64,000 nt of DNA from Bacteroidales bacterium. GTDB lineage: Bacteria; Bacteroidota; Bacteroidia; Bacteroidales; ML635J-15. The stretch is from the NCBI GenBank assembly GCA_963676165.1, contig OY781043.1, positions 294,364 to 358,363 on the forward strand, written 5' to 3'. Within the stretch, counting starts at the first letter, position 1. Each line of letters opens with the position of its first letter. Both the position numbers and the translations under genes were made by a program. The notes below the pieces were generated by a model. That model was not told the origin of the DNA. It saw only the letters and a program-made list of their open reading frames with translations, and did not search any database. This document shows, in pieces, positions 6,288-54,347 of the stretch.

Positions 6288-6469
6288 GGATCAAGCAAAA
6301 AAGTTGGGGGACATTGAATGTTTATTATGACCTATATTCTCAAATATTTGGATGGGCTATTTTTTTTGACAGTTCAGCTTATCATTACCAAAATCTGCGC
6401 TAGTCTAGTACTAGCCGCTTTTCGTAAAACTATAGATAGGTATCTGGTAATAATCTAGATACGAGTTTT

Positions 6470-8179
6470 GGCGCCAGACTGTCTAATAACCTTAATAAGT
6501 TTGTTAATAAAGATTTTGCATGAATTCATGTTAAAGGAAAGGATATTAGTACCTTACAATATGAAATTTATAAAAGGAGAAAGTAGGTATTTAAAAAGTC
6601 TATTCCCAGTATCTTTAGAAGAAAGCATTGGTGAGGATAATGAAATTCGCATTATTGACGCATTTGTTGATAATTTAAACTTTTCTGAATTGGGATTTAG
6701 AACACATTACAGAGAAACAGGTCGTCCGGCCTATCACCCCAAAGATTTACTAAAGCTATATATTTATGGATATATGAATAGCATTAGATCATCACGTCGG
6801 TTAGAAAAAGAATGCAAACGAAATATTGAATTGATGTGGCTTTTAAATAATTTGTCACCAGATCATAATACTATATCGAATTTCAGAAAGGACAATTCCA
6901 AATCAATAAAGAAAGTTTTCAGAGAGACGGTTAAGTTATCTCAGTATTTTGAACTTATTGGAGGCGAATTGGTTGCAGGAGACAGCACAAAGCTTAGAGC
7001 CCAGAATAGCAAAAAGAATAATTTCAATCAGAAAAAGATAGAGCGACATCAAGAATATATCGAAAGAAAAATAGAAGAATACGAACAAGAATTAAGTAAT
7101 AACGATGGTGATAATCAGGAAATATTAAAAAAGATTGAGAACAAAAAAGAACTTAAATCAAAGTACGACCGCATGTCTGAGGAATTAACTAGAGATAAAG
7201 AAACACAAATATCAACTAGTGATCCAGATAGTCGAAATATGACTCTTCGAAATAATATATCGGAAGTCGCTTACTGTGTTCAAAGTATGGTTGACGCTAA
7301 GCACAACCTGCTGCTGGACTTTATTGTGACGAACAAAGGTGATAAAAACGCAATGGGAAATATGTTGCAACGTACTAAGTCTATTTTACGTAATACTACT
7401 TTTACTGCTTTATTTGATACTGGATACCATTCAGGGAGAGAGCTAAAAAAAGCAGATGATTTAGGCATCAATGTTCTGGTAAATGTACCTTCTACACCAC
7501 ATGCAAACCAAATTCCTGACCCAAATTATTGTATAAGCAATTTTGTATATGACAAAGAAAATGACACATATACATGCCCAGAAGGTGAAATTTTAATAAC
7601 TAATGGGAATTGGTGTAACGCAAGAAATAAGAATGGAGAAGTTTATTACAGATTTAAAAACTATGGTACCGTTAAATGCAAAGAATGTCCCGTTAGGTCT
7701 AAGTGTACAATAAATAAAAAAGGTCGTAGAATAAAAAGAAGTGAATATGCCGAGAACATACAGTCTAACACGAAACGAATGATTGATTTAAAAGATAAAT
7801 ACCGGCAGCGGAAAAGCATAGTAGAACATCCATTTGGAACAATGAAACGACAATGGGGATACGACCACATAATAACGAAAAAATACATTAAACGAGCAAC
7901 AGCAGATGTTGGGTTGATTTTTTCATGCTATAATATCAAGCGATTAATAAATATTCTGGGAATTGATGCACTAATCGAATCTTTCAATAAGGGAAAGAGG
8001 TTTTGTGCTCAAATATTAACCAGATATGGAATCAAATTAAGACTTTTAAGACCTCTAAATTATTTACACAAACAAGGCTGCACAAAATCAATCCCTAATT
8101 ATTACTACTTATTTAGCAACTATAGGCTTATGAGGGCATGAATTTTTAGAAAATCTTAATTATCAGACAGTCTGGCGCC
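6470..8179 (+). mobile_element. IS1182-family insertion sequence
   Basis: The terminal inverted repeats GGCGCCAGACTGTCTAATAA (6470-) and TTATCAGACAGTCTGGCGCC (-8179) have one mismatch. They enclose a single DDE transposase ORF in 1710 bp. Confidence 0.8.
6561..8141 (+). CDS. IS1182-family (IS5/IS4-like DDE) transposase
   Basis: MKFIKGESRY...RIIDAFVD...TGRPAYHPKDLLKLYIYGY...SSRRLEKEC is the typical IS1182 N-terminus, and HPFGTMKRQWGY the typical C-terminal motif. The upstream TTG-started extension is probably not translated. Confidence 0.8.
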   Translation: MKFIKGESRYLKSLFPVSLEESIGEDNEIRIIDAFVDNLNFSELGFRTHYRETGRPAYHPKDLLKLYIYGYMNSIRSSRRLEKECKRNIELMWLLNNLSPDHNTISNFRKDNSKSIKKVFRETVKLSQYFELIGGELVAGDSTKLRAQNSKKNNFNQKKIERHQEYIERKIEEYEQELSNNDGDNQEILKKIENKKELKSKYDRMSEELTRDKETQISTSDPDSRNMTLRNNISEVAYCVQSMVDAKHNLLLDFIVTNKGDKNAMGNMLQRTKSILRNTTFTALFDTGYHSGRELKKADDLGINVLVNVPSTPHANQIPDPNYCISNFVYDKENDTYTCPEGEILITNGNWCNARNKNGEVYYRFKNYGTVKCKECPVRSKCTINKKGRRIKRSEYAENIQSNTKRMIDLKDKYRQRKSIVEHPFGTMKRQWGYDHIITKKYIKRATADVGLIFSCYNIKRLINILGIDALIESFNKGKRFCAQILTRYGIKLRLLRPLNYLHKQGCTKSIPNYYYLFSNYRLMRA

Positions 8180-8426: not shown

Positions 8427-8840
8427 GCAACTTCTCGGTTAAAAGAATACATCGTTAAAGGATTTACCATGAACGATGATTTACTCAAACAGGCTGGTGG
8501 AGGTAATTACTTTGACGAATTACTAGCTCGTATCAGGGATATTCATTCATCAGAAAAAGTGTTTTGGAGAAAAGTTCTTGACATATATGCTACAAGTATT
8601 GATTATGACCCATCATTGGAGATGTCTGTAATGTTCTTCAAAACAGCTCAAAATAAAATGCACTGGGCAGCGCATGGGCACACAGCAGCTGAGATAATTT
8701 ATAATCGAGTGGACTCAGGGAAACCAAATATAGGACTGAGTAGCTTTAAAGGAAAGAATCCAACTAAACAGGAAACAGAGATTGTTAAAAAAAAGCGCCA
8801 ATTCCCCTTTCTGAAAATCAACGCTTTTTTGCTAATGTAA
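8427..8840 (+). pseudogene. rhuM-family gene, central fragment (3'-truncated)
   Basis: (S)RLKEYIVKGFTMNDDLLKQAGGGNYFDELLARIRDIHSSEKVFWRKVLDIYATSIDYD is RhuM-like. Similarity ends near 8795 (EIVKK), where a hairpin AAAAGCG...CGCTTTT follows. Confidence 0.7.
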
Positions 8841-8929: not shown

Positions 8930-11314
8930 ATGACCAATATGGATGATTATCAGTTTAAAGGAAAACGCGTTTTAATTCGTGTCGATTTCAATGTCCCTTT
9001 GAATGAAAATGGTGAAATAACCGACGATACACGAATTGTAACAGCCGTGCCTACAATTCAAAAAGTGCTTACTGAAGGCGGTTCTGTCATCATCATGACA
9101 CATCTTGGCCGTCCGAAAGGACAATTTAATGAGGCTTTAAGTGTAAAACGCATCTCTGATTATGTGTCCGGAATGCTAGGTCGTGAAATTATTGTTGCGG
9201 AAGATTGCATAGGCAAGGAAACGGAAAAACTGGCAGCATCACTCAAAAAAGGACAGGTGCTCATGTTGGAAAATCTTCGTTTTTATAACGAGGAAACTGC
9301 CGGCGATGAGGAATTTGCGAAAAAATTGGCCAAACTTGGTGATGCTTATATCAATAATGCCTTTGGAACTGCCCATCGTGCGCACGCATCCACCTACACC
9401 ATCGCGAAATTTTTCCCTTACGACAAAATGTTGGGATATTTGGTGGAGTCTGAAGTGAAAAACATTGATAAACTCCTGAAAAAAGCCAAATCACCCTTTA
9501 CTGCAATCATTGGAGGAGCAAAAATTTCCACAAAAATTGACATCATCGAAGCCTTGATGGAGAAAGTGGATAATTTAATCATTGGTGGGGGTATTGTCTT
9601 TACCTTTCTGAAAGCCAAAGGACTAGAAGTTGGAAATTCTTTGGTTGATGATGATTATATTGAGGTGGCAAAACGTATTCTTGACACAGCTCGTGAACGA
9701 AATGTCAAAGTGTATCTCTCAGAAGATGTGTTGATTGCAGATAATTTTAGCAATGAAGCCCAGATAGAGCATGTTCCTGTTTCTGCCATCAAACCCGGTT
9801 GGATGGGAATGGATATTGGTGTAAAATCTGCTGAATTGTTTGAGCAGGTCATTGAAAATTCTGAAAGCATTTTGTGGAATGGTCCTATGGGCGTCTTTGA
9901 AATGCCTCACTTTGCTTATGGTACGCTGAAAACAGGTTTGTCTGTGGCACGTGCTACCGATAAAGGTTCTTACTCTTTGGTTGGTGGAGGTGATTCCATT
10001 GCTGCCTTAAAAAAGTATGCATTGGAACATAAAATTTCTTATGTCTCAACTGCAGGTGGAGCCTTACTGGAGTATATTGAAGGGAAAAAATTGCCAAGTT
10101 TACGCGCAATTAGGGAAACTCACAGCATGGATGATTACGATTTCCGTGGAAAACGTGCTCTTGTTCGTGTGGATTTCAATGTCCCTATGGATGAGAATTT
10201 CAAGATTACCGATGATACACGTATCCGTACTGCGATTCCAACGCTTCGGAAAATTCTTGCAGAAGGAGGATCTATCATTCTTTTAACTCACATTGGCCGT
10301 CCGAAAGGTCAGCGAATGGATAAATATTCTGTTCGACATATTATTCCTTATGTTTCGGATTTGCTTGGTACCGAAGTGCAATTTGCAGATCGTTGTCGTG
10401 GCGATAATACTGAGAAAATTGCAAAACAGCTTAAGCCTGGCGAAGTGCTGATGCTTGAGAACCTCCGCTTTACCAATGAAGAAATTGAGGGAAGTGAAAG
10501 TTTTGCTGAAGAATTAAGTCGTCTTGGGGATGTGTACATCAATAATGCCTTTGGTACAGCGCATCGTGCACATGCTTCAACATATACCATTGCAAAATTC
10601 TTCCCTGAAGATAAAATGCTTGGATATCTGATTGAAAATGAAATTAACAACATCAATCGCATATTGTACAAAGCTGAGCGTCCGTTTACCACTGTCATTG
10701 GGGGATCAAAAATCTCAACTAAAATCAATATCATTCGTGCTTTGATGGATAAAGCCGATAATGTGATTATTGGTGGCGGGATTGCCTTTACCTTTATCAA
10801 AGCCATGGGTGGAAATATTGGAGATTCTCTCGTTGAGGAGGATTCATTGGATGTGGCACGTGAAATACTTGATTATGCTGCACGTAGCTCAGTGAAATTG
10901 TATCTTCCAACAGATTGTTTGATTGCCGATGCATTTGAGAAAAACCCAAAAATTCGTCATGCCAAAGCAAACAATATTCCTGACGGATGGAGGGGTTTAG
11001 ATATCGGTGTGAAAACAGCGGAAACCTATACGAAAGTGATAGAAAACTCCAACGCTATTCTTTGGAATGGTCCGATGGGAGTATTTGAAATGCCGTATTT
11101 TAGTAACGGAACAATCAAAATATCTCTGGCAACAGCGCGTGCAACCGATATGGGAGCGTTTTCACTTGTTGGTGGTGGAGATTCTATTGCAGCACTAAAA
11201 CGCTATGGTATGAGTCATAAAATTTCGTATATTTCAACTGCGGGAGGTGCTTTGCTTGAGTACATTGAAGGAAAAGAATTACCAAGTTTAAAAGCAATAC
11301 GCACAAAGATATAA
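8930..11314 (+). CDS. pgk: Tandem-fused phosphoglycerate kinase (two complete PGK modules: residues 1-399 and 400-794)
   Basis: Both halves carry VRVDFNVP, TH(L/I)GRPKG, ENLRF, NNAFGTAHRAHAS, GG(A/S)KISTKI, WNGPMGVFE, GGGDS and STAGGA. There is no stop between IRETHS and the MDDYDF at 10127. Confidence 0.85.
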   Translation: MTNMDDYQFKGKRVLIRVDFNVPLNENGEITDDTRIVTAVPTIQKVLTEGGSVIIMTHLGRPKGQFNEALSVKRISDYVSGMLGREIIVAEDCIGKETEKLAASLKKGQVLMLENLRFYNEETAGDEEFAKKLAKLGDAYINNAFGTAHRAHASTYTIAKFFPYDKMLGYLVESEVKNIDKLLKKAKSPFTAIIGGAKISTKIDIIEALMEKVDNLIIGGGIVFTFLKAKGLEVGNSLVDDDYIEVAKRILDTARERNVKVYLSEDVLIADNFSNEAQIEHVPVSAIKPGWMGMDIGVKSAELFEQVIENSESILWNGPMGVFEMPHFAYGTLKTGLSVARATDKGSYSLVGGGDSIAALKKYALEHKISYVSTAGGALLEYIEGKKLPSLRAIRETHSMDDYDFRGKRALVRVDFNVPMDENFKITDDTRIRTAIPTLRKILAEGGSIILLTHIGRPKGQRMDKYSVRHIIPYVSDLLGTEVQFADRCRGDNTEKIAKQLKPGEVLMLENLRFTNEEIEGSESFAEELSRLGDVYINNAFGTAHRAHASTYTIAKFFPEDKMLGYLIENEINNINRILYKAERPFTTVIGGSKISTKINIIRALMDKADNVIIGGGIAFTFIKAMGGNIGDSLVEEDSLDVAREILDYAARSSVKLYLPTDCLIADAFEKNPKIRHAKANNIPDGWRGLDIGVKTAETYTKVIENSNAILWNGPMGVFEMPYFSNGTIKISLATARATDMGAFSLVGGGDSIAALKRYGMSHKISYISTAGGALLEYIEGKELPSLKAIRTKI

Positions 11315-11334
11315 TGCAAATAAACTAAGCTATT

Positions 11335-12633
11335 ATGGAAATTAATTTGCCGAAAATTCAAGATGCTGACCTGAATGGAAAAGTTGTCCTTGTTCGTGTC
11401 GATCACAATGTGGTGAAAAAGGGTGTGATTCACGATCCTTACCGTATTGACGCAACGATTGGAACCCTGTATCATATCAATGCAAAGGGCGGGAAAATCA
11501 TTTTAATGACACACGTGGGAAGACCGCGTGACAAAAAGGACAATAGCATTCATATTAGTGATGATACTTCGGTAAAACCCATTGTCGATTACTTAAACAA
11601 CAAATTGCATATCAATATTCAGATACCGGAATTTGTACCGCATGGCGATCAAGGATATTTGGGCTTGGAGACTTCCATTAACCACATGATTCGTGAACTT
11701 CGAAATGGCGATATCGATGGAATTTACTTACCAAATACACGTTGGTTTGCCGGTGAAGAAGCAGATGGCGATGTGTCAGATCGTTTTGGATTGCAGCTAG
11801 CTGGTTTAGCAGATGTGTTTGTCAACGATGCATTTGGATCATGGCAACCTCACACTTCAACGGTGAAAGTCAACGATTATTTGCCTTCTTATGCAGGATA
11901 TCTCATGCAAAAGGAAATTGCTAATTTAGAGCGTATTTATAAAGCTGAGCATCCTTTTGTGGCAGTGGTTGCAGGGAGTAAAATGGACACGAAAATTGAG
12001 TCCCTTTATGCGCTTTTAAAAATTGCTGATAAATTGGTTTTGGGCGGTGTCATTTACAATGCCTATTTGTGCGCAAAATATGGAATTCGAATCAAAGGAG
12101 TTGATGAGGGGAACTTGGCACTTGCAAAAGAGTTTGTGAAATATGCTGAGGATTATTCTGATAAGATTTTGGAGCTGGAATACATCATTGAATCTGATAT
12201 TTTGGAAGGCAAAGAAAATGGAAAATACAGAATGCATCACATTCAGGACTTAAAAGAGGATCAGGAATTGAACTATGTGTTGGATGTTGCTCCAGAGTCC
12301 TTTCATCAAGAAAATGTTTGTCAGGTATTTAAAAATGCTAAGACAATTTTTATCAATGCAGTTATGGGTTTTACTCCGCATTTTAATGATGGAACCATTG
12401 CATTGGATGAGCTAACAGATTCAAATTTGGATGCTGTGAAGTTATACGGTGGTGGAGATACCATGCAAGAGTTAAAACGTTTACTCCCAGGTTTGTATAT
12501 TGTCGCTTTGGACAATCCAAAATACTACATTTTCACCGGTGGTGGTGCAGTGCTAAAAGCCATACAAGAAGGAACCTATGCAGGCTTAGAGCCCGTAAAG
12601 GCTTTGGTTGAAAACCAGAAAAAGAATCTGTAA
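11335..12633 (+). CDS. Divergent phosphoglycerate-kinase-like paralogue
   Basis: It keeps VRVDHNV, THVGRP, NTRW, VNDAFGS, AGSKMDTKI, GGGDT and TGGGA. It has SWQPHTS in place of AHRAHAS and INAVMGFTP in place of WNGPMGVFE. It starts 20 nt after the fused pgk. Confidence 0.7.
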   Translation: MEINLPKIQDADLNGKVVLVRVDHNVVKKGVIHDPYRIDATIGTLYHINAKGGKIILMTHVGRPRDKKDNSIHISDDTSVKPIVDYLNNKLHINIQIPEFVPHGDQGYLGLETSINHMIRELRNGDIDGIYLPNTRWFAGEEADGDVSDRFGLQLAGLADVFVNDAFGSWQPHTSTVKVNDYLPSYAGYLMQKEIANLERIYKAEHPFVAVVAGSKMDTKIESLYALLKIADKLVLGGVIYNAYLCAKYGIRIKGVDEGNLALAKEFVKYAEDYSDKILELEYIIESDILEGKENGKYRMHHIQDLKEDQELNYVLDVAPESFHQENVCQVFKNAKTIFINAVMGFTPHFNDGTIALDELTDSNLDAVKLYGGGDTMQELKRLLPGLYIVALDNPKYYIFTGGGAVLKAIQEGTYAGLEPVKALVENQKKNL

Positions 12634-12691: not shown

Positions 12692-13246
12692 TTGACATGC
12701 ATATGATGCATTTCGGCGTTGTCACCATAACATCTACGGTGATATTACTAGTAATTTTTTGCGCCAGCTTAGTACTTTCTGACAATTGTAAAACTACAGA
12801 TAAATATTTGAGATTACCCAAAATGGGAGGTTGCCTTCTATTCTTAGTGGGGAAACAGCAAGGCTTTATTTTTGAAAATACCTTTGTACATGACCTAAAT
12901 AATCTATTTCAAGTATTGAATTATAACAAATTGCTCAAGCCCTGTAGGGGCTTAATTTTTGTAACCCCGGACAAGAATTTATTCGTAGTCCGGGGATGAC
13001 AAACATAGGTGAATGTGTTTTTGGCGTATATCTTTGCAATAACCGAGGGACGAAGGTATGCAAAGATTATGACAAAAAGTTTTGTCATGTAATAACGGGA
13101 AATACTTTAAATTAAACATCAGTTTTCATCCTGAAAACTAAAATTAATTCCATTGATTCAATATCAGGATAGAAAGCGGAGTTAATAAGCCCTATACATA
13201 TTGGTTTATCCAACACCAATGGTGTTTCACGCCAAAAGCTACAGCT

Positions 13247-15760
13247 TTAGAACTCTGCCTTAAACTGAAACGATACAGCCCTTGGAGGTAGCATATTTCC
13301 AGGACGCTCAATGTATTCCCGGTTAAATAGATTCTGAACAACTAAAGAGGCTTTAATCGCATCGTTTATTTGCCATCCAAAATGCACATCGTAGGTTAAC
13401 ATTGGCTTGTATTTATTGTATGCGTAATAATCCGCAAACCCATTTAATACCAAATTGTTGAAAGTTTGGAATTCCGGGTCTTGAGATACAAAAATATTGT
13501 CTAGTGCAAGCATAGGTGAGTGGTAAATCATAGATACACCTGCCGAAATTACTTTGTAATCAATGATAATATTTCCTTTCAATGAATGTTTATAGCGATA
13601 CTTCAAATAATCAGTATCTCGATTTTTTGTGGCGATAATAATATCCCTTTCCTCTTCAGTATCGTAGAGGTTAATGGCATCCATGTGTGTGTATCCTGCA
13701 AAAAGAGTAGCATCGATATCATCCGTAATACTTCCTTTGGCAGAAACAGAAAGATCCACGCCTATGACTCTTACATCTCCAATGTTTTGTGATTGGAAAC
13801 CCATATTGTCCATGGTAGGCATAATGCTGTCTGCAAGTGGGAGGTAGGTTTCTGTGTCAAACAAACCAAATCCAAATTCCATCATGTTATTGTAGCGAGA
13901 GTAGAATGCAGCTGCATCAGCAAAACCCATCCAGCCTTTCCCAATTTTAAATCCTTGGTGAGCTCCAACTTCAACATTCCAGCCAGTTTCACTTTCTAAA
14001 TTAGGATTTGGAAAAACGTTTAATAAACCAGCAAAGGCTGTGGCAGTATATTTCTCAGCAACACTTGGGAAACGATACCCTTGACCAAAACTTGCGCGTA
14101 AGTTTGTGTATTCAAACAAACGGTAATTTGCACCTGCACGGAACACTGGTTTCACAGGCACTTCAATTGTATTTTTGTCGAGTTCAATGTCTATCATGGA
14201 TTCAGTTTGTGTTGTATCCACACGATAATACTCAGCACGAAGCCCTACCGAAGTTTTCAAACGTCCGAAATTATTATCCACTTGCACATAGCCTGCTAAA
14301 TTGTTGCTAAAGTGGTTTCCAAAAAGATTTGAGAATATCTCAGAATATGAATTGACAAAACCAGCAGCAAGTTTTGTTTTTTCTCCTATGTCAGTTTGAT
14401 ATCTGTATTCACCATAGAAAATCCGGCTTTTGCTGTTTTTTGATGTGTCAATCGGAATACGATTATCCACCAAAAAGTAGCGGGTTCTTACGCTGTATCT
14501 CGATCCGTTTTCTTTGTAGTAATAAATGAAAGGATCGATGTTGATGCGGTATCCTTCAATCACGTTAACGGCGCCTGGCATGGCTTCTAAAGGACGGATA
14601 ACAATTGAGTCAGCACCATTTACATCGTTGAGTGTTTCAGATGTCCAAAGCAGAAAATCAGATTTTGCTTGTCCCATAAAGTTTGCGTTGACACCATAAG
14701 CAAGACCTTCTACTCGTTTACTACGGAAACGCAGGTTGGTATTTATGCGTGTGCGTTTGTCAAAATTGTCAGTGCGATATCCTTCATCCACAAATTGATT
14801 TCCTGCAATCACAAAGTCAAAATTTCCAAACTGTTGCATATGCATGAAGTTCAAACCGCTAAACATAGGTTTAGAAACCCAGTAAAATGTGTTTTCCCTT
14901 AGCATGATGGATGCAGGAGTATTTCCGTCTTGATAAAAATTATTGTCAGTGTAAAGATTGCTATCCCAAGTTTTTCCATTAATGTACTGGATAGGATTTT
15001 TCGGCTCATTGTAGAAACCTACATTGTAAATAATTTTTGTTTTTGATTTTTCTGTCGGATAGGCAGTACGGATATTGATGACACCGTTCATTGCAGATGA
15101 TCCGTACAATACCGATGATGCACCTTTAAGGACTTCCACCTGAGAAACATTTTCGATTGGAAGGTAATCCCATTTCACGTTTCCGGCATCTGCAGCGATA
15201 ATTGGCAACTCATCCACTAAGACAAGCACGCGACTACCAGCGCCATAGGACCAGCCACTACCTCCACGTATGCTGGGTTGTCCATCGTTGACATCCACAC
15301 CAGGAATTTTTGTGATGGCGCTCTCCATGCTATTTGTGTTGGTATTTTCTATCATCTGAGGTTTGATAACCTCCATCGAAACGGTTACTTCAGATAGTTT
15401 TTGTTCGTATTTTGATGCTGAGACAACGATCTCTTCAATGATTTCAGCATTTTCTTCAAGCACAATGTCTAGTTGAATAAATTCATTATCTTTAATTGTG
15501 ATGTCTTTTTCAATTTTCTTGTAGCCAACGTATTGGTAGCTAAGATGATAATCTCCAGCTTTTAGTTCGATGGAATAGTTGCCATCGAAATCAGAGATTG
15601 TTCCAGAGTTAAAGTCTGTATTTGCTTGTGTAATTACGACATTCACACCATAAAGACCTTCATTATTGGTGTCAACAATATGTCCTTTAATTCCGCTTTG
15701 GGCAAACAAACTCAAGCTGCTTACCAAGCCAAAAATGACAAGTAGTACGTGATTTTTCAT
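13247..15760 (-). CDS. TonB-dependent receptor with an N-terminal carboxypeptidase-regulatory-like domain
   Basis: 837-aa ORF with a signal peptide and an N-terminal CarboxypepD_reg-like segment (GIKGHIVDTNNEGLYGVNVV). A plug region (IPGVDVNDGQPSIRGGSG) and a C-terminal beta-barrel ending in F are present. Confidence 0.85.
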   Translation of the reverse strand: MKNHVLLVIFGLVSSLSLFAQSGIKGHIVDTNNEGLYGVNVVITQANTDFNSGTISDFDGNYSIELKAGDYHLSYQYVGYKKIEKDITIKDNEFIQLDIVLEENAEIIEEIVVSASKYEQKLSEVTVSMEVIKPQMIENTNTNSMESAITKIPGVDVNDGQPSIRGGSGWSYGAGSRVLVLVDELPIIAADAGNVKWDYLPIENVSQVEVLKGASSVLYGSSAMNGVINIRTAYPTEKSKTKIIYNVGFYNEPKNPIQYINGKTWDSNLYTDNNFYQDGNTPASIMLRENTFYWVSKPMFSGLNFMHMQQFGNFDFVIAGNQFVDEGYRTDNFDKRTRINTNLRFRSKRVEGLAYGVNANFMGQAKSDFLLWTSETLNDVNGADSIVIRPLEAMPGAVNVIEGYRINIDPFIYYYKENGSRYSVRTRYFLVDNRIPIDTSKNSKSRIFYGEYRYQTDIGEKTKLAAGFVNSYSEIFSNLFGNHFSNNLAGYVQVDNNFGRLKTSVGLRAEYYRVDTTQTESMIDIELDKNTIEVPVKPVFRAGANYRLFEYTNLRASFGQGYRFPSVAEKYTATAFAGLLNVFPNPNLESETGWNVEVGAHQGFKIGKGWMGFADAAAFYSRYNNMMEFGFGLFDTETYLPLADSIMPTMDNMGFQSQNIGDVRVIGVDLSVSAKGSITDDIDATLFAGYTHMDAINLYDTEEERDIIIATKNRDTDYLKYRYKHSLKGNIIIDYKVISAGVSMIYHSPMLALDNIFVSQDPEFQTFNNLVLNGFADYYAYNKYKPMLTYDVHFGWQINDAIKASLVVQNLFNREYIERPGNMLPPRAVSFQFKAEF

Positions 15761-15884: not shown

Positions 15885-18800
15885 TTAACGTATCAGAGTA
15901 AAATGCCCTGATTGCGTATAGGTGTTTCCATAATAATCATCGAACTCAAGATACCAACTGTAAACTCCTTCAGGAGAGTTGATGTTATTGGTTGTGCCAT
16001 CCCATCCAATATCTTGGTCATCTGTCTTGAAGAGAATTTCTCCCCAACGGTTATAGATTTCCATGTGGTATGAGTTCATGTCAATTCCTGTGACAACAAT
16101 ATTGTATGTTTCATTGGTTTCATCATGGTTCGGTGTAAATGCGGTTGGTGCATATATCATGACCTCTCCTGATACAGTCATATTGACAGTTGCAGTATCC
16201 ACACATCCAAAGAGTGATTCCGCAGTTAATAATACAGTGTATTTACCTGGCTGTCCAAAGGAGTGTTGAGGACTTTCTTCATCGGTAATTCCACCATCGC
16301 CAAAATTCCATTCATAGAAATAACCTCCGGCAGTATAATTTGTAAACTCAACCAATGGATCTGTTATTAGCACATTGGTTTTTGAGGCTTCAAATTCTGC
16401 ATCAGGTTTTGGATGAACAGTAATTGCAATGGTACTGTCTCTGCGACATCCGTCCGTTGATTCAACCATCAAATTCACATGATAAGTTGTTGCATTGTGG
16501 AAGGTGTGTGTTGGTTGTTTGTCGAATGAAAGATTTTCTACGTCCCCATCGTCAAAGTCCCAAATATAACGTTGTCCAATATGAGGGCTACCTTCATTGA
16601 AATGCACTGTTAATGGTTGACAGCCTTCAGTGATATCAGCATTGATTAGAGTTTGCGGTAATGGATAAGTATAAATCGGGTATTCCACATAAATACTATC
16701 AAAATGGCAAGCATCCCAGGCTGTAAAAGCAAAGACAGAATCTGTCCAAGGTTTTACATAGATCATATCGCCGTAAATCAGGCTATCATGTAAATAGACT
16801 TCGTATGGTTGACCTGCGCTACCACTCAAATTCAAATCAAATCGTACGGTTTCATAAGGACAAACAGTATCAATATTCGCCATGAGATCAAATTCCAGTG
16901 GGTCGTGAACGGTTACTGTGAAATATGATGTGTCTGACATGCAATTGATATCATCCATGACAAATGCACCATATTCAGTTGTTCCTTCTGGAGCGACCTC
17001 TATGCTTTCGCCTTGCAGTCCGTGATGTGTCCAGAAAACGGTATATGGTGGAACACCGCCGGTAATCATGCTGTAACCAATAGTTGTTGTTTGTCCCCAG
17101 CAAATGGTTTGATCGTCAAGTGTCATTAGCTCAATAGGTTCCGGCTCACGGACTGAGTCGCCAATAACAAAGTGGCAGTAGTGATCATCTGTCACTGTGA
17201 CGGAATAATAACCGGCACCAACCCCAATTTGATCTTCTTCCCAAGATCCATTGCTCCAATTATAATGGTAAGGGGGCGTTCCTCCAAAGGCAGTAATTTG
17301 TACTGTCCCGTCTGTATAGTTTCCACACGAAGCGTCTGTTGCTGTAATGCTTGCTCCTAATGGTGCATCTGGTTGAATGATTTCTACCGTGTCGTAAGCC
17401 AAACAGCTATGATTGTCAGTAATTGTTACAGAGTAAATTCCTGGTGGTAAAGAATCAATACTTTGACCAATTTCCCCATTTGACCATGAGTAGAAATATG
17501 GTTCAGTTCCACCAAATACGTTCACTGATGCCCATCCATTATCTTCCCCAAAGCAACGTACATCTTCATGTTCAATTGTTGCTGTCAATGGGAAGTCTGG
17601 TTGATCAATTTGAACGTATGCATAAGTCTGACAGTCATTATTATCTGTTACCGTGACAATATAAATACCAGCAGGAATATTTTGTTGATCTTCCGTTGTA
17701 ACACTGTTATTCCATTGGTAGTTGTATGGAGGTGTTCCTCCAGTTACGGTTAAATCAATATAGCCATTGCTAGCATCAAAACAGGATACGTCATTGCTGT
17801 GAATGTTCGCTACAAGTGGCTCAGGTTCAATGATTACCATGGTGTGAGACAAGTCGCATCCATTGGCATCAGTAATGCTTATGGTGTAATCTCCGGCAGG
17901 AATGTTCATTAAGTCCTGAGTATTCATACCATTGCTCCACTCATAATAATATGGAGGAGTTCCTCCTGCAGGTGTAACATCAAGTTCCCCATCATATCCA
18001 CCATAACAAGATACATTGATGAAGGTGTAGGTCATGCTAAGTGGTGCATCTGGTTCATCCACATAGATACTGTCTTCATAGGTGCAGCCAACAGAATCTG
18101 TCACGGTGACATAATGCATTCCAGCAAAAACTCCAACTGGATTTTGTTCGTCACTGTTTGCAGGTTCCCACCAATACGTATGTGATCCGGCACCTCCGCC
18201 AGAAGTAACATAAAGGTTACCTGTTGCTTCTCCATGACACAGGACATCGTCTTCATGTAAAGTTGCCCACATTGGTGGATATAGGTTGGAAATATTCATT
18301 TCTCCTGTCACCTCACATCCATAAACATCGCTGACTGTGACATAATAATAGCCCGCAGGAACAATGATGCTATCAATTGGTGAAATGTGTGTATTCACCA
18401 TGCCATTGGAGTATTCAAAAGTGTATGGTCCTGTGGAGTTAAGTGCCGTTACAGTAACAACTCCTGAAGTGTCACCAAAGCATAAAATGTCATTCCCGTC
18501 AATTTCAAAATCTAGCTCAGGAAGTGGTATAATATTCACTTGATCGTGAATAGTATCGTCGTCCTCATAAAAACCATCCATATCCCAAGTTTGGTTAAAC
18601 CAGTTGATAGGAATGTAGCCTAATGGAACAGAACCTTCCAATAGCGGTCCTATTTCAAAAGGTCCTATGGTGATATCTTTGCTTCCATTTCTGCTTTCAT
18701 CATACATGGAAACATAATCATCCTTAGCCAGATAATCACTTAAATCAATTTCAGGTGTAGTGTATCCAGGTGTAGATATGTTATTATACACTCTTTCTCC

Positions 18801-20183
18801 AGTTTCAGGATCTGTATAACTTATCGGAATGTCAAATTGTGGGATTTCATTTGCCTTAAATGGGGTTTCCAGAATAATTTCGATAGAGGCATAAACCACG
18901 GAATATAAAAAGTCAAAGGTTAATGAGTCCCAAGTATGATTTGTAAATGTCGGGCTAATGTCGTACTCTACACTGATATCCATAGAATCCCAATCATGAC
19001 AAGGGTAAGTGACATTTAAATCGTTATTTACGGCAAAGGTAATGGTGTCGGAATCTCCAGCATTAATCAATGCGTTGCCATCGTTGGGGTCAGTTTCAGT
19101 ATATGGCATCGAGATAGGGAATCCTAAAGTAGCCCAAATGGTAGGACAGAAGGAGAATTCTTGAGTCATATAGCTGTTCATGTCGAAACTGATCTGCAGA
19201 ATATAATAGTCGATAACTGCAGTTACCGGACTGATATCGTAAGTAATTGTTCCACCATCAATGATGTCAATGACATTGGCAATTGCGGGTCCTGTTGGTG
19301 GAGGAATGAGGTTGGCGATTGCACTTAAAAATGTTAGGACGTTAAGATTGAAATGTATCCAGTTGTCTTGTCCGTATGCTTCAAGACATTGCGTGTTTGG
19401 ATCTAGCCAATCGTCGGTTTCAACATAAGGCAAATCAATTTCACCAGTTAATCCGATGCCAAACCAGTCAGGGATGATAATAGGCAAAATGTCGTCGTTA
19501 CAAATGTTTGGTAAACCTGTTACAGGATCAAGGCAAGGATAAACAACTTCGCCTGTTTCACCATTTAGATAAAAAACTGCAATGGAGTCGTGAGGTAAAG
19601 GTTGTCCTGGAACGGGTTCGGATGGAATGTTAAAACTAGGGACAAGTGGAATTGTTGTTGTTCCAAAGAGTTCAACCACTAAGTCCATATGAAGTCCAAG
19701 TCCAAATTCCAAATCGAGAGCTATAACCCCGGCAGTTGGAAAGTGGGAGTCGAGATAGTAACCATCTAACACATCGTACCAAGAATTGATGGTGATGGTT
19801 TCTCCATGATCAAAGCTGTAGTCGTCCGGGAAATCAAGCGTGATTTCTACCGGATAGTTAATATCAATGCTTCCTAAAGTAAATCCATGAATGCTGAATG
19901 TTGAACGAATAACTCCCCAGAAACCATAGTCAAGACCCATGCCAAAGGTTTCTCCGAAAATCTCAGTATATGAACCCACATTGTCAGATTCATTCCATTC
20001 AATATTAATGATATCGTAATCAAAATCGAGGCTAAAAGCTCCACCAGGACCCCACATGTCTTGGTCCTCGGTATGATAGAGGATATTATGAATTAATACG
20101 TTGGTGGGGTCTTGCGCCAAGCTCTTTTGTGTGCCTGACACGCCAACGATTAATAATGAGATTAACAACAGTTTTAGTTTCAT
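15885..20183 (-). CDS. Giant secreted adhesin-like protein with SprB-type repeats, PKD domains and a T9SS type B C-terminal sorting domain
   Basis: 1432-aa ORF with a signal peptide. It has repeated C.G...G...VT..GGT.PY.Y.WSNG units and PKD-like segments. The C-terminus (PTAFTPNHDETNETY...NRWGEILF...GWDGT) is typical of the gliding-motility-associated CTD. Confidence 0.8.
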   Translation of the reverse strand: MKLKLLLISLLIVGVSGTQKSLAQDPTNVLIHNILYHTEDQDMWGPGGAFSLDFDYDIINIEWNESDNVGSYTEIFGETFGMGLDYGFWGVIRSTFSIHGFTLGSIDINYPVEITLDFPDDYSFDHGETITINSWYDVLDGYYLDSHFPTAGVIALDLEFGLGLHMDLVVELFGTTTIPLVPSFNIPSEPVPGQPLPHDSIAVFYLNGETGEVVYPCLDPVTGLPNICNDDILPIIIPDWFGIGLTGEIDLPYVETDDWLDPNTQCLEAYGQDNWIHFNLNVLTFLSAIANLIPPPTGPAIANVIDIIDGGTITYDISPVTAVIDYYILQISFDMNSYMTQEFSFCPTIWATLGFPISMPYTETDPNDGNALINAGDSDTITFAVNNDLNVTYPCHDWDSMDISVEYDISPTFTNHTWDSLTFDFLYSVVYASIEIILETPFKANEIPQFDIPISYTDPETGERVYNNISTPGYTTPEIDLSDYLAKDDYVSMYDESRNGSKDITIGPFEIGPLLEGSVPLGYIPINWFNQTWDMDGFYEDDDTIHDQVNIIPLPELDFEIDGNDILCFGDTSGVVTVTALNSTGPYTFEYSNGMVNTHISPIDSIIVPAGYYYVTVSDVYGCEVTGEMNISNLYPPMWATLHEDDVLCHGEATGNLYVTSGGGAGSHTYWWEPANSDEQNPVGVFAGMHYVTVTDSVGCTYEDSIYVDEPDAPLSMTYTFINVSCYGGYDGELDVTPAGGTPPYYYEWSNGMNTQDLMNIPAGDYTISITDANGCDLSHTMVIIEPEPLVANIHSNDVSCFDASNGYIDLTVTGGTPPYNYQWNNSVTTEDQQNIPAGIYIVTVTDNNDCQTYAYVQIDQPDFPLTATIEHEDVRCFGEDNGWASVNVFGGTEPYFYSWSNGEIGQSIDSLPPGIYSVTITDNHSCLAYDTVEIIQPDAPLGASITATDASCGNYTDGTVQITAFGGTPPYHYNWSNGSWEEDQIGVGAGYYSVTVTDDHYCHFVIGDSVREPEPIELMTLDDQTICWGQTTTIGYSMITGGVPPYTVFWTHHGLQGESIEVAPEGTTEYGAFVMDDINCMSDTSYFTVTVHDPLEFDLMANIDTVCPYETVRFDLNLSGSAGQPYEVYLHDSLIYGDMIYVKPWTDSVFAFTAWDACHFDSIYVEYPIYTYPLPQTLINADITEGCQPLTVHFNEGSPHIGQRYIWDFDDGDVENLSFDKQPTHTFHNATTYHVNLMVESTDGCRRDSTIAITVHPKPDAEFEASKTNVLITDPLVEFTNYTAGGYFYEWNFGDGGITDEESPQHSFGQPGKYTVLLTAESLFGCVDTATVNMTVSGEVMIYAPTAFTPNHDETNETYNIVVTGIDMNSYHMEIYNRWGEILFKTDDQDIGWDGTTNNINSPEGVYSWYLEFDDYYGNTYTQSGHFTLIR

Positions 20184-53262: not shown

Positions 53263-54347
53263 GTGTGCCAAGAAGCAGTACATCGGCATTAAACAGTACT
53301 GCATGCTTTAATTGAGATGGTGGAATCCGTCAGTTGACGGATGATCCCCCCGAAGTCGATTTCCAGGAAAGGGCTTCAACCCACCTAAAGATGCTGTGTT
53401 GAAGAAGCATGGTATTGAGCGTTTAGGAAAATACAGTCCATGAGACTGTCAGGAATGTGTACAGGAGATGAACGAAAGAGAACCATTGATGAAGAGTCGA
53501 GAAAGTGGAATCCTCAGTCAAAATCCGTATAAGTATGAATGCGGTTATAAGTGCAACGGTTACCTGTTTATTGGTTGCACGATTGGCGTCATTTAGATGG
53601 CATGAACTGTACACAGGCTCAGTTAAGGAACTTGGGAATCTGATCGGGAATGTAAAGGGAAGCACAATAAAATCAATCTAGAGGCGAAATACCAAAAACC
53701 CGAATCAGAGACGGACTAACCCGTAGTAGTGATGAATTCCTGTAATGGGAATAGAGCAAAGGGGTTAGGTTATACAGAGTCATAACATTTAACAACTTGT
53801 AAGAGGATGAATTTATGGAATGAGACAAAATCAGTACCGATAAGTCGCCAAATGATTTGGCAGGCTTATAAGAAAGAGAAAGCCAACAAAGGAAGTGCAG
53901 GTGTCGATTCAGTAAGCATGGAGATATTCGATGCAAACAGAAGTAAACACTTGTATAAACTTTGGAATCGAATGATATCGGGGAGTTATTTCCCTCCACT
54001 AGTCAAAGAAGTTGAGATTCTTAAAAAAGACGGCAAAGTCCACAAGTTAGGTATTCTAACAATAGCAAATTTCGTGGATACGAACTGTCAAGAGTATTTT
54101 ATCTGCTACGATGTCGACTGGTACGCTGGGCACGAAAACGGTATAAACGCTACAGAATAAGTTTGACAAGAGTCTGTAAATTGTTATACAGGGTTAGGAA
54201 GCAATATCCTTATCTGTTTTATCACTGGCAATTAGGATTTTCAAATTAAAAGTAGCAGATTTGTATAACAAGAGCCGTATGACGGGAGACTATCACGTAC
54301 GGTTCTGTGAGAGGCTTAGGGTGAAACTCCCTTTACCTATTCGACAC
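53263..54347 (+). mobile_element. Group II intron, ORF-deleted derivative (bacterial class C-like)
   Basis: The 5' end is GTGTG. The RT N-terminus (53807-54070) reads SAGVDSVSMEIF...YFPPLVKEVEILKKDGKVHKLGI. The IEP C-terminal remnant is RWARKRYKRYR...YPYLFYHWQLGFSN* (about 54125-54250). Domain V is GAGCCGTATGACGGGAGACTATCACGTACGGTTC (54272-54305). A domain VI-like stem follows. The proposed 3' end ...CGACAC is inferred by alignment of the flanks to site H. Confidence 0.75.

What the first reader, a model, noticed from the sequence alone, without database searches (positions are those of the whole stretch)
11335..12633. A third, strongly divergent PGK-like gene directly downstream of the PGK-PGK fusion
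Twenty nt after the fusion gene lies a 432-aa PGK homologue. It keeps the N-domain basic-patch motifs (VRVDHNV, THVGRP, NTRW) and several C-domain glycine motifs (AGSKMDTKI, GGGDT, TGGGA). It replaces AHRAHAS with SWQPHTS, which in my alignment loses the Arg of that motif. It replaces WNGPMGVFE with INAVMGFTP, and it carries an insertion between the THxGRP and NxRF motifs. Three PGK-fold modules in one apparent operon suggest neofunctionalisation, such as a different phospho-acceptor or a regulatory subunit. A cyclic-2,3-diphosphoglycerate-synthetase-like gene is also present in the window (60311-61651), but it lies 48 kb away. Any functional link between them is pure speculation.
Basis: partly seen in the sequence, partly recalled or inferred. 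Interest (0 to 1): 0.65.

Follow-up and report, generated by a model that had tools for sequence, protein, structure and literature searches.

The report
Conserved divergent PGK paralogue, function untested
The gene after the doubled phosphoglycerate kinase is an intact, strongly conserved member of an unstudied side-branch of that enzyme family found in many anaerobic bacteria; it keeps the catalytic machinery but has a rebuilt nucleotide pocket, so it probably does related chemistry with a different partner molecule.

Summary
ORF 11335-12633 (+) encodes 432 aa and starts 20 nt after a 794-aa PGK-PGK fusion. It matches Pfam PGK at 273 bits and models as a confident PGK fold (pLDDT 94).

It is not a decaying copy. 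It belongs to a monophyletic, uncharacterised PGK clade: 243 sequences were analysed from Bacteroidales, Desulfobacterales, Syntrophaceae, Nitrospirota, Deferribacteres and one Woesearchaeota MAG. Members are 36-91% identical to one another but only 26-38% identical to canonical PGKs.

The clade keeps the phosphoryl-transfer and phosphate/Mg residues (R38 as R 237/K 6, K215, K219, N336, GGG-D374-T375, T393-GGG) and most 3-PG ligands (D23, N25, H62, R65, R122). It uniformly replaces H169-R170 with W-Q, G337-P338 with A-V, and deletes V341/E343.

dN/dS is about 0.02, and dN is below that of the neighbouring housekeeping PGK in four of five genome pairs.

Adjacency to the fusion holds only in one Bacteroidales lineage. 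Elsewhere the gene stands alone, follows PGI, or follows GH130/GT4 genes.

The best reading is an active PGK-type kinase with altered nucleotide (co-substrate) specificity in central sugar-phosphate metabolism. The chemistry is untested. No link to the distant cDPGS-like gene was found. I rate it a new variant of a known kind, of moderate interest.

The parts
11335..12633 (+). PGK-like gene (432 aa), member of a distinct uncharacterised PGK clade
   Evidence: ORF. Pfam PGK 272.9 bits. AF2 model pLDDT 94, pTM 0.89. Foldseek finds only PGKs, TM 0.76-0.87 at 25-30% identity. Clade membership.
11392..11412 (+). VRVDHNV motif: D23 and N25 (3-PG 2-OH ligands) kept; canonical F24 replaced by His; the following Pro27 replaced by Val
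   Evidence: Family counts: D 243/243, N 243/243, H 242/243. P27V switch.
11509..11556 (+). THVGRP (H62 and R65 equivalents kept) followed by the clade-specific basic insertion (consensus (K/R)DKKTGxIxI; here RDKKDNSIHI)
11626..11664 (+). Second N-domain insertion (PEFVPHGDQGYLG) that canonical PGKs lack
   Evidence: Columns gapped in 89-98% of canonical PGKs; HxGRP to NxR spacing 74 vs 57 residues.
11734..11745 (+). NTRW: R122 equivalent kept; canonical ENLRF becomes PNTRW (E119P, F123W)
11836..11859 (+). GSWQPHTS: replaces G(T)AHRAH(A/S)S; H169 to W, R170 to Q, one residue deleted
   Evidence: W 236/243 and Q 241/243 in the clade; H 90/92 and R 91/92 in canonical PGKs.
11971..11997 (+). AGSKMDTKI: catalytic K215 and nucleotide-phosphate ligand K219 kept; G212 to A
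   Evidence: K 243/243 at both positions.
12043..12102 (+). GGVIYNAY...IKGV: G238 to V, and the canonical iGxSL segment (which holds adenine-flanking L256) replaced by the shorter IKG(I/V)
   Evidence: contact list for human PGK from PMC2441801.
12352..12378 (+). INAVMGFTP: N336 and G340 kept; W335, G337 and P338 replaced; loop two residues shorter, lacking V341 (adenine contact) and E343 (ribose ligand)
   Evidence: A 242/243, V 243/243, E343 column gapped in 226/243.
12448..12498 (+). GGGDT (Mg and phosphate ligands D374, T375 kept) followed by the clade-specific insertion K-x-L-x-P-x-x-Y
12532..12549 (+). FTGGGA: T393-G394-G395-G396 loop kept; S392 to F
8930..11314 (+). Neighbour: tandem PGK-PGK fusion (794 aa). 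Both halves carry all canonical PGK motifs, so it is the presumed housekeeping PGK.
   Evidence: Pfam PGK x2, 981.9 bits; alignment; conserved as a fusion of about 794 aa in at least 120 clusters.
11315..11334 (+). 20-nt intergenic spacer with no terminator-like hairpin; co-transcription is likely but untested
12937..12953 (+). Terminator-like hairpin about 300 nt downstream of the PGK-like stop codon
   Evidence: consensus scan only

Best explanation
The gene encodes a functional, selectively maintained enzyme from a distinct and so far uncharacterised clade of the phosphoglycerate kinase superfamily. It keeps the two-domain PGK fold and every residue that carries out phosphoryl transfer (K215, K219, N336, D374-Mg, T375, the glycine loops, and R38, which is R in 237 and K in 6 of 243 members). 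It also keeps the residues that hold the glycerate 2-OH and most of the 3-phosphate (D23, N25, H62, R65, R122). It therefore most likely still moves a phosphoryl group between a phosphate-bearing donor in the C-domain and the carboxylate of 3-phosphoglycerate or a very close analogue. What changed, uniformly across the clade, is the nucleoside half of the nucleotide site and one wall of the basic patch. On the nucleotide side, G238 becomes V, the iGxSL segment is shortened, G316 is lost, W335/G337/P338 are replaced, and the V341/E343 loop is shortened. On the basic-patch side, H169-R170 becomes W-Q and a conserved KDKKTG insertion is added. The inferred consequence is a different nucleotide or co-substrate preference, or different kinetics or regulation, from the housekeeping ATP-dependent PGK. 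The enzyme would operate beside that PGK in central sugar-phosphate metabolism of anaerobes. Shown here: fold, clade, residue pattern, purifying selection and gene contexts. Inferred: catalytic activity, substrate identity and physiological role.
For: The protein has the PGK fold and family match. It belongs to a monophyletic clade separated from canonical PGKs by the longest internal branch of the tree. Within-clade identity averages 63% (35-100%), against 26-38% to canonical PGKs. The clade spans Bacteroidales, Desulfobacterales, Desulfobulbaceae, Syntrophaceae, Nitrospirota, Deferribacteres, Thermodesulfobacteriota and a Woesearchaeota MAG. Catalytic and phosphate ligands are invariant or nearly so in 243 members, while the switches are fixed in 93-100% of them. 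Published contact maps identify the lost positions as adenine, ribose and 3-phosphate contacts and the kept ones as phosphate/Mg contacts (PMC7729029; PMC2441801). The human E343A mutant keeps activity but loses about 270-fold in kcat/Km for ADP, so loss of E343 predicts altered nucleotide handling, not a dead enzyme. Purifying selection is strong. dN/dS is about 0.024 against the L003 orthologue. In the four more distant genome pairs, dN is 0.16-0.23, against 0.18-0.31 for the adjacent fused PGK. Gene contexts where informative involve carbohydrate or sugar-phosphate metabolism: the PGK-PGK fusion and PGM/PMM, PGI directly upstream in two Bacteroidota MAGs, and GH130 phosphorylases with GT4 transferases. 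There is precedent for PGKs with different nucleotide preference: the GDP-preferring Entamoeba PGK, as cited in PMC11955521.
Against: There is no biochemical, expression or genetic evidence for any member. I could not inspect model coordinates, so 'remodelled pocket' rests on sequence alignment plus published contact lists. In two loops (around L256 and V341/E343) the exact residue equivalence depends on the alignment: V/I256 and F346 could still flank a base. G312 and G238 vary among canonical bacterial PGKs too. Yeast R168 mutants (equivalent to R170) reportedly retain activity (from memory, not checked here), so R170Q alone need not change the substrate. Outside Bacteroidales I could not test whether the genomes also carry a canonical PGK. 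If they do not, this may simply be their PGK. Neighbourhood is not conserved across phyla, so context evidence is weak.
Confidence: 0.5

Rival explanations
1. It is an ordinary ATP:3-phosphoglycerate kinase isozyme (EC 2.7.2.3). It would be a second, divergent lineage of PGK spread by horizontal transfer, functionally redundant or condition-specific, with the motif changes compensated structurally.
For: All catalytic residues and six of seven 3-PG ligands are kept. The fold is PGK. E343 is 'not essential for catalysis' in human PGK (PMC2441801). Glycolytic neighbours include PGI and the PGK fusion. All sources annotate it as phosphoglycerate kinase.
Against: Residues that are 91-100% conserved in 92 canonical PGKs are all replaced, and replaced identically across the clade: H169, R170, G316, G337, P338, E343, W335, S392 and E119. 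The gene coexists with an intact double PGK in the same locus for as long as the Bacteroidales lineage can be traced, down to about 64% identity of the fusion. It evolves more slowly than that PGK in four of five pairs. This is hard to reconcile with simple redundancy.
Confidence: 0.25
2. It is a PGK-fold kinase acting on a different carboxylate acceptor, a 3-PG analogue with another distal anion or a larger phosphorylated acid. That would give the PGK superfamily a second reaction.
For: One of three phosphate-binding arginines is lost (R170Q), with H169W, F24H, E119P and F123W around the basic patch. A conserved, lysine-rich insertion (K/R-D-K-K-T-G) sits directly after the HxGRP motif. One lineage places the gene after GH130/GT4 genes.
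Against: D23, N25, R38, H62, R65 and R122 are invariant or nearly so, which is the signature of glycerate-3-phosphate binding. No conserved partner gene points to another pathway.
Confidence: 0.12
3. It is a non-catalytic regulatory or structural partner of the fused PGK-PGK protein, a pseudo-enzyme forming a three-module complex.
For: There is persistent proximity to the fusion in one Bacteroidales lineage. This includes two fusion loci picked without regard to the paralogue. Catalytically dead PGK-like proteins exist in kinetoplastids (PMC7729029).
Against: Catalytic K215, K219, D374, N336 and the glycine loops are invariant in 243 sequences, and R38 is R or K throughout; pseudo-enzymes normally lose these. 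The clade is common in phyla where no PGK lies nearby.
Confidence: 0.05
4. It supplies a bisphosphoglycerate intermediate to the cDPGS-like enzyme encoded 48 kb away, as part of a cyclic 2,3-diphosphoglycerate-type solute pathway.
For: The only support is that both genes lie in the same 64-kb window, plus a weak local similarity of the distal gene to a cDPGS structure.
Against: The genes are 47.7 kb apart. The distal protein matches no curated cDPGS model. No homologue lies within 10 kb of the PGK-like gene in 24 related loci covering 384 kb.
Confidence: 0.02
5. It is a decaying duplicate (pseudogene in the making).
For: Its Pfam score is low compared with the neighbouring PGK domains.
Against: The ORF is intact. 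More than 240 homologues are full length. dN/dS is about 0.02 and dN is below that of the housekeeping PGK in four of five pairs. The same substitutions are fixed across phyla.
Confidence: 0.01

Closest known systems
Canonical bacterial/eukaryotic phosphoglycerate kinase (EC 2.7.2.3; Pfam PF00162; e.g. PDB 1VPE, 1PHP, 2WZB)
   Same: Same two-domain fold (TM 0.76-0.87). The full set of phosphoryl-transfer, Mg and phosphate-binding residues is kept. D23, N25, R38, H62, R65 and R122 of the 3-PG site are kept.
   Different: Only 25-35% identity, in a separate monophyletic clade. H169-R170 becomes W-Q. G337-P338 becomes A-V. The V341/E343 loop is shortened and the ribose-binding Glu is absent. G316, W335, S392, E119 and F123 are replaced. 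There are four clade-specific insertions, about 17 extra residues in the N-domain. The protein does not reach any NCBIfam PGK-containing equivalog cut-off (200 vs 883 bits).
GDP/GTP-preferring PGK of Entamoeba histolytica (EC 2.7.2.10), and nucleotide-promiscuous PGKs of anaerobes such as Ruminiclostridium cellulolyticum
   Same: These are precedent that PGK-fold enzymes can change nucleotide preference through changes in the base-binding pocket (as cited in PMC11955521). They occur in anaerobes with unconventional energy-carrier use.
   Different: Those enzymes are otherwise canonical PGKs with a few point changes. Here the whole nucleoside-binding half is remodelled and the ribose ligand is gone. 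No kinetic data exist for this clade.
PGK-like proteins of kinetoplastids and diplonemids (PGKL and others)
   Same: They are divergent PGK-domain paralogues coexisting with functional PGKs, sometimes in tandem gene arrays (PMC7729029).
   Different: Those are described as catalytically dead, with substrate-binding residues substituted or deleted, and often carry extra domains (PAS, cNMP-binding, transmembrane). The present clade is single-domain, bacterial, and keeps every catalytic residue.
PPi-dependent versus ATP-dependent phosphofructokinase (analogy of mechanism only; from general knowledge)
   Same: In both cases an enzyme family kept its phosphoryl-transfer chemistry and sugar-phosphate site while glycines lining the nucleoside pocket were replaced by bulkier residues. 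The host organisms are similar (anaerobes rich in PPi-linked enzymes).
   Different: The fold is unrelated. For the PGK-like clade the donor is unknown. The invariant alpha-phosphate ligands N336 and T375 argue that more than a bare PPi is bound.

Membership tests
Phosphoglycerate kinase superfamily (Pfam PF00162, PGK fold) | Full-length match to the PGK profile above the gathering score | tested here: met
   272.9 bits against a cut-off of 27; residues 8-411 cover profile positions 1-377 of 379.
Phosphoglycerate kinase superfamily (Pfam PF00162, PGK fold) | Two Rossmann-like domains joined by a hinge; structural match to solved PGKs | tested here: met
   AF2 model pLDDT 94.0, pTM 0.89. The top 50 Foldseek PDB hits are all PGKs, E about 1e-30.
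Functional PGK, EC 2.7.2.3 (ATP:3-phospho-D-glycerate 1-phosphotransferase) | Phosphoryl-transfer and Mg/phosphate residues R38, K215, K219, N336, G371-373, D374, T375, G394-396 | tested here: met
   All present in the query. They are 242-243/243 in the clade, except R38, which is R 237 / K 6.
Functional PGK, EC 2.7.2.3 (ATP:3-phospho-D-glycerate 1-phosphotransferase) | Complete 3-PG site: D23, N25, H62, R65, R122 and R170 | tested here: not met
   Five of the six are kept. R170 is Q (241/243 in the clade) whereas it is R in 91/92 canonical PGKs, and the neighbouring H169 is W. Residue roles are from PMC7729029.
Functional PGK, EC 2.7.2.3 (ATP:3-phospho-D-glycerate 1-phosphotransferase) | Adenosine-binding elements: ribose ligand E343, P338, adenine-flanking V341 and L256, small residues G238, G316, G337 | tested here: not met
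   E343 is absent (column gapped in 226/243). P338 is V (243/243), G337 is A (242/243), G316 is A/D/S, G238 is V/L/I, and both loops are shortened. Contacts are from PMC2441801.
Functional PGK, EC 2.7.2.3 (ATP:3-phospho-D-glycerate 1-phosphotransferase) | PROSITE PGK signature ending ...R-x-D-x-N-[SACV]-P (pattern recalled from memory) | tested here: not met
   The query reads R-V-D-H-N-V-V. The final Pro is Val in 98% of the clade and Pro in 78% of canonical PGKs. The pattern itself was not retrieved from PROSITE.
Functional PGK, EC 2.7.2.3 (ATP:3-phospho-D-glycerate 1-phosphotransferase) | Curated equivalog model hit above cut-off | tested here: not met
   The only NCBIfam hit is PRK13962 (PGK/TIM) at 200.4 bits against a cut-off of 883. 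The neighbouring fusion scores 987.
Functional PGK, EC 2.7.2.3 (ATP:3-phospho-D-glycerate 1-phosphotransferase) | Measured ATP-dependent phosphorylation of 3-PG, or complementation of a pgk mutant | not testable with these tools
   No experimental data were found in the literature searches.
Catalytically dead PGK-like pseudo-enzymes (kinetoplastid type) | Loss of catalytic and substrate-binding residues essential for activity | tested here: not met
   The catalytic residues are invariant across the clade.
cDPG pathway partner (with cyclic 2,3-diphosphoglycerate synthetase) | Genomic association with a bona fide cDPGS gene | tested here: not met
   The distal gene is only weakly cDPGS-like. No homologue lies near the PGK-like gene in 24 loci.

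The most novel reading that the evidence does not exclude
The clade is the first functionally divergent branch of the otherwise single-reaction PGK superfamily. It would be a kinase that still makes or uses an acyl phosphate of a glycerate-type acid but pairs it with a non-adenosine partner: another nucleotide, a nucleoside-free phosphate donor such as PPi or polyphosphate, or AMP. In PPi-economy anaerobes (Bacteroidales, Desulfobacterota, Syntrophaceae, Nitrospirota) this could couple the high-energy step of lower glycolysis to an alternative energy currency. Several pocket-lining glycines are replaced by bulkier residues (G212A, G238V, G316A/D/S, G337A), the ribose ligand is lost, and all phosphate ligands are kept. 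That combination is what such a switch would look like. The invariant alpha-phosphate ligands argue against bare PPi.
Probability: 0.3. Interest if true: 0.8.

Novelty: new variant of a known kind. Interest (0 to 1): 0.55.

Why it matters
PGK is treated as a functionally uniform enzyme family (one fold, essentially one reaction), and genome annotation names every member 'phosphoglycerate kinase'. This analysis shows a widespread, tightly conserved clade in anaerobic sediment and gut-type bacteria that fails several defining substrate-binding features while keeping the catalytic core. In Bacteroidales it coexists with a duplicated-and-fused housekeeping PGK. If its co-substrate differs, metabolic reconstructions of these organisms mis-assign an energy-conserving step. 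It could also bear on the open question of how PPi- or GTP-based glycolytic economies are supplied. If it proves to be an ordinary isozyme, it still defines how far the PGK nucleotide site can drift. The clade is easy to test: it is a single soluble 48-kDa protein and standard coupled assays exist.

Tried and rejected
1. Pseudogene or relaxed selection. Rejected by the intact ORF, more than 240 full-length homologues, and dN/dS of about 0.02.

2. A conserved small partner ORF downstream. The 115-aa (L001) and 120-aa (L093) ORFs after the gene are unrelated to each other and to anything else fetched.

3. Link to the cDPGS-like gene. The similarity to cDPGS is weak and no homologue lies in 24 related loci.

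4. Cultured hosts or curated names. Cluster look-up returned no organism names or accessions. The afdb50 fold library was unavailable.

5. Genome-wide scan for relatives. The related-loci scan of genome contigs was swamped by canonical PGKs through one degenerate pattern. Presence or absence of a canonical PGK in the Desulfobacterales and Nitrospiraceae genomes therefore could not be tested.

6. Literature. Five searches (PGK-like, PPi-dependent, divergent/atypical/second PGK, nucleotide specificity, mutants) found nothing on this clade.

7. Promoter and terminator scan. Promoter-like hits were no more frequent than in shuffles (19 vs 16.3), so no statement on an internal promoter is made.

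8. Rfam scan of the window. No regulatory RNA was found near the locus.

9. Three-dimensional inspection of the pocket. This was not possible because model coordinates are not exposed to the scripting tool.
Full report
**1. The observation**

The window carries an ATG-initiated ORF at 11335-12633 (+) of 432 codons. It begins 20 nt after the stop of a 794-codon ORF at 8930-11314. The upstream ORF contains two complete PGK domains (Pfam PF00162 twice, 981.9 bits). The downstream ORF matches the same profile end to end, but at only 272.9 bits.

To check the residue-level claims I anchored alignments on human PGK1. The expected ligand residues sit at the UniProt positions.

- HMMER alignments to solved PGKs and three MAFFT alignments agree on the first motif. 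G-T-A-H-R-A-H becomes G-S-(gap)-W-Q-P-H, so R170 is Gln and H169 is Trp.
- They also agree on the second motif. W-N-G-P-x-G-V-F-E becomes I-N-A-V-M-G-F, a loop two residues shorter with no acidic residue at the E343 position.
- The N-domain is longer. The spacing from HxGRP to NxR is 74 residues, against 57 in both halves of the fusion.

**2. It is not an orphan or a decaying copy, but a member of a large coherent clade**

A search of 5.8 billion proteins returned over a hundred 90%-identity clusters at 72-91% identity. These come from Bacteroidales and, unexpectedly, from Desulfobacterales and Desulfobulbaceae MAGs. An exhaustive HMMER scan of 50%-identity representatives found only a handful of more distant full-length relatives (56, 44, 44, 39 and 37% identity) before scores fell to those of ordinary PGKs at 31-40%.

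A profile of those distant members recovered a further hundred-plus clusters. They come from Nitrospirota, Deferribacteres, Thermodesulfobacteriota and a Woesearchaeota MAG. A Syntrophaceae MAG carries a 55% homologue.

In a neighbour-joining tree the clade is monophyletic. The midpoint root falls on the branch separating it from all canonical PGKs, including human PGK1 and the two halves of the local fusion. A Desulfobacterales sequence nests inside the Bacteroidales ones, which indicates inter-phylum transfer. Mean identity is 63% within the clade and 40% among the canonical sample. Between the two groups it is 32% (range 26-38%).

Every source that names these proteins calls them 'phosphoglycerate kinase'. 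No NCBIfam model is specific for them. Five literature searches found no paper on the clade.

**3. Selection**

Against the closest orthologue (L003), dN is 0.081 and dS is saturated at about 3.3, giving dN/dS of about 0.02. The neighbouring fusion gives the same ratio.

In that closest pair the PGK-like gene has the higher dN (0.081 vs 0.043). In the four more distant genome pairs its dN is consistently lower than the fusion's: 0.16 vs 0.18, 0.21 vs 0.29, 0.23 vs 0.30 and 0.22 vs 0.31. The gene is therefore about as constrained as the housekeeping PGK. This removes the pseudogene alternative.

**4. What is kept and what is changed**

I compared 243 clade members with 92 canonical PGKs.

Kept, invariant or nearly so, in the clade:
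- D23 and N25, which hydrogen-bond the substrate 2-oxygen.
- R38.
- H62, R65 and R122, which bind the 3-phosphate.
- K215.
- K219, N336 and T375, which bind the nucleotide phosphates.
- The G371-G373 helix cap and D374, which bind Mg.
- The T393-G396 loop.

Residue roles are taken from the PGK review PMC7729029 and from the human PGK contact table in PMC2441801.

Changed, and changed in the same way in 93-100% of the clade although 75-100% conserved among canonical PGKs:
- P27V, E119P, F123W, H169W, R170Q, G212A, G337A, P338V and S392F.
- F24 becomes His (242/243).
- G238 becomes V/L/I.
- W335 becomes V/I.
- G316 (92/92 in canonical PGKs) becomes A/D/S.
- The canonical i-G-x-S-L segment, which carries adenine-flanking L256, is replaced by a shorter I-K-G-(I/V).
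- The G-V-F-E loop is shortened, so V341 and the ribose ligand E343 have no counterpart in 226/243 members. The minority subclade has Asp there.

Four insertions are specific to the clade. One is a strongly conserved basic motif (K/R)-D-K-K-T-G immediately after HxGRP. Another is K-x-L-x-P-x-x-Y after the GGGDT helix.

The phosphoryl-transfer centre and the phosphate-binding parts of both substrate sites are therefore intact. The nucleoside-binding half of the C-domain site and one wall of the N-domain basic patch have been rebuilt.

**5. Structure**

An AlphaFold2 model built on a 148-sequence alignment is confident throughout, insertions included (mean pLDDT 94.0, pTM 0.89, no segment below 50). 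Foldseek against the PDB returns only PGKs (E about 1e-30, TM 0.76-0.87, 25-30% identity). No solved structure comes from this clade. I could not inspect coordinates, so pocket geometry remains inferred from sequence.

**6. Genomic context**

In the window the gene follows the fusion by 20 nt with no terminator-like hairpin between them. A terminator-like hairpin lies about 300 nt downstream.

The order fusion then PGK-like recurs in many Bacteroidales/Marinilabiliales contigs, usually as holB (divergent), fusion, PGK-like, PGM/PMM: L002, L003, L004, L088-L092 and L097.
- In L090-L092 an endonuclease gene lies between the fusion and the PGK-like gene.
- In L006 and L098 the PGK-like gene is 3.7-4 kb away on the opposite strand.
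- Two fusion-bearing contigs chosen without regard to the paralogue both carried it within 5 kb.
- Fourteen contig lengths are shared between the top-120 lists for the two proteins.

The linkage is thus stable in this lineage, but so is the surrounding synteny.

Outside that lineage no PGK lies within 10 kb:
- Desulfobacterales: L001 stands alone; L083-L086 follow two GT4 and two GH130 genes.
- An unclassified bacterium (L087), Nitrospiraceae (L093), Woesearchaeota (L094) and another FCB-type contig (L095/L096) all stand alone.
- In two Bacteroidota MAGs (L008, L009) the gene lies 28-71 nt downstream of a phosphoglucose isomerase.

Where context says anything, it points to sugar-phosphate metabolism. 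No partner gene is conserved across phyla, and the small ORFs downstream in L001 and L093 are unrelated.

**7. Interpretation**

The pattern does not fit a pseudo-enzyme. It fits an active kinase whose co-substrate recognition has shifted. The elements are a universally retained catalytic core, a universally replaced nucleoside pocket, strong purifying selection, and coexistence with an intact housekeeping PGK.

Published kinetics show that removing only E343 from human PGK leaves the enzyme active. It raises Km for ADP ten-fold (0.12 to 1.24 mM) and lowers kcat/Km about 270-fold (9.0e6 to 3.3e4 M-1 s-1) (PMC2441801). A clade that has lost E343, P338 and G337 and reshaped both adenine-flanking loops is unlikely to handle ADP/ATP as canonical PGKs do.

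PGKs with shifted nucleotide preference are known, for example the GDP-preferring Entamoeba enzyme cited in PMC11955521. Those differ from canonical PGKs by point changes only.

I therefore rank the readings as follows:
- A PGK-type 3-PG/1,3-BPG phosphotransferase with altered nucleotide or co-substrate preference or altered kinetics: 0.5.
- An ordinary ATP-dependent isozyme: 0.25.
- A different carboxylate acceptor: 0.12. This is suggested by R170Q, H169W, F24H and the KDKKTG insertion, but opposed by the invariant D23, N25, R38, H62, R65 and R122.
- A non-catalytic partner of the fusion: 0.05.
- The cDPG link: 0.02.
- A pseudogene: 0.01.

The most novel reading not excluded is a nucleoside-independent or otherwise unconventional phosphoryl partner (PPi, polyP or AMP). 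The several glycine-to-bulkier substitutions lining the pocket recall the ATP-to-PPi switch in phosphofructokinases (general knowledge). The host phyla are rich in PPi-linked enzymes. The invariant alpha-phosphate ligands N336 and T375 argue against bare PPi.

**8. The cDPGS idea**

The gene at 60311-61651 (-) is 47.7 kb away. It matches no curated cDPGS model and gives only a marginal cobW-type P-loop hit in Pfam. Its similarity to a solved cDPGS is local and weak (E 4.6e-8 over about 100 residues). No homologue occurs within 10 kb of the PGK-like gene in 24 related loci. The link is unsupported.

**9. Limits**

There are no experimental data and no coordinates. Residue equivalence in two remodelled loops depends on the alignment: V/I256 and F346 may still flank a base. 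G238 and G312 vary among canonical bacterial PGKs too. I could not determine whether clade-bearing Desulfobacterota or Nitrospirota genomes also hold a canonical PGK, because the single genome-collection scan was consumed. That co-occurrence table and a nucleotide-panel enzyme assay are the decisive next steps.

**10. Verdict**

The finding is real and correctly described. The gene is a member of a widespread, well-conserved, uncharacterised variant clade of PGK with a rebuilt nucleotide pocket and a modified basic patch. It is a new variant of a known kind and of moderate interest (0.55). The interest would rise sharply if assays show a non-ATP partner or a non-3-PG substrate.

Noticed in passing
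window 8930-11314 (+): This is a tandem PGK-PGK fusion of 794 aa in which both halves carry the full canonical PGK motifs. It is not an assembly artefact. Fusions of about 794 aa at 58-92% identity fill the top 120 hits, all from Bacteroidales/Marinilabiliales-type MAGs where named, and are seen in L002-L004, L006, L088-L092, L097 and L098. It appears to be the housekeeping PGK of this lineage.
   Followed up: partly
window 6468-8141 (+) and 8469-8840 (+): A DDE transposase (DUF772 / DDE_Tnp_1_6) and a truncated RhuM-family fragment (matching profile positions 62-169 of 252) sit directly upstream of the PGK fusion. In relatives the upstream neighbour is a divergently transcribed DNA polymerase III delta' (holB), followed by PSP1 and GldH. 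The ancestral synteny and probably the native promoter region have been disrupted here by mobile DNA.
   Followed up: partly
L008 8651-9952 and L009 83-1240 (Bacteroidota MAGs): In two MAGs the PGK-like gene lies 28-71 nt downstream of a phosphoglucose isomerase gene (Pfam PGI, E 1e-25 and 9e-30). This is a second, independent glycolytic neighbourhood for the clade.
   Followed up: partly
L083 3737-9692, L084, L086 (contigs with the 431-aa variant): The PGK-like gene follows two GT4 glycosyltransferases and two GH130 (mannoside phosphorylase family) genes on the same strand, about 300 nt upstream. In L085 a phosphodiesterase/sulfatase-type gene lies downstream. This may hint at a sugar-phosphate or glycoside pathway, but only one lineage shows it.
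   Followed up: no
Clade-wide: Desulfobacterales and Desulfobulbaceae proteins are 72-74% identical to the Bacteroidales ones and nest among them in the tree. Canonical PGKs in the sample average 40% identity. This implies recent inter-phylum horizontal transfer of the paralogue.
   Followed up: partly
window 11527-11544 (residues 65-70): The query departs from the near-invariant clade motif (K/R)DKKTG in the basic insertion. It reads RDKKDN, with T69 to D and G70 to N (T 223/243 and G 226/243 in the clade). The significance is unknown.
   Followed up: no
window 53336-53454 and 54270-54345 (+): Rfam finds a group II intron D1-D4 element (83 bits) and a group II intron domain 5/6 element (62 bits) about 800 nt apart. 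That gap is too short for a full reverse-transcriptase ORF, suggesting an ORF-less or degenerate group II intron.
   Followed up: no
window 60311-61651 (-): This 446-aa P-loop protein has only a weak local match to a solved cyclic 2,3-diphosphoglycerate synthetase (9sxb, E 4.6e-8) and a marginal cobW hit. No NCBIfam model matches. It is an uncharacterised distant cDPGS relative in a bacterium, and an IS4 transposase lies next to it at 58746-59780.
   Followed up: partly
window 13247-15760 (-) and 15885-20183 (-): A TonB-dependent receptor and a 1432-aa cell-surface protein flank the PGK-like gene. The L098 homologue of the large protein carries SprB/PKD/CHU_C domains. The same pair is found next to the gene in L006 and L098, but with the block inverted relative to the fusion. 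This indicates a local inversion in the lineage.
   Followed up: partly
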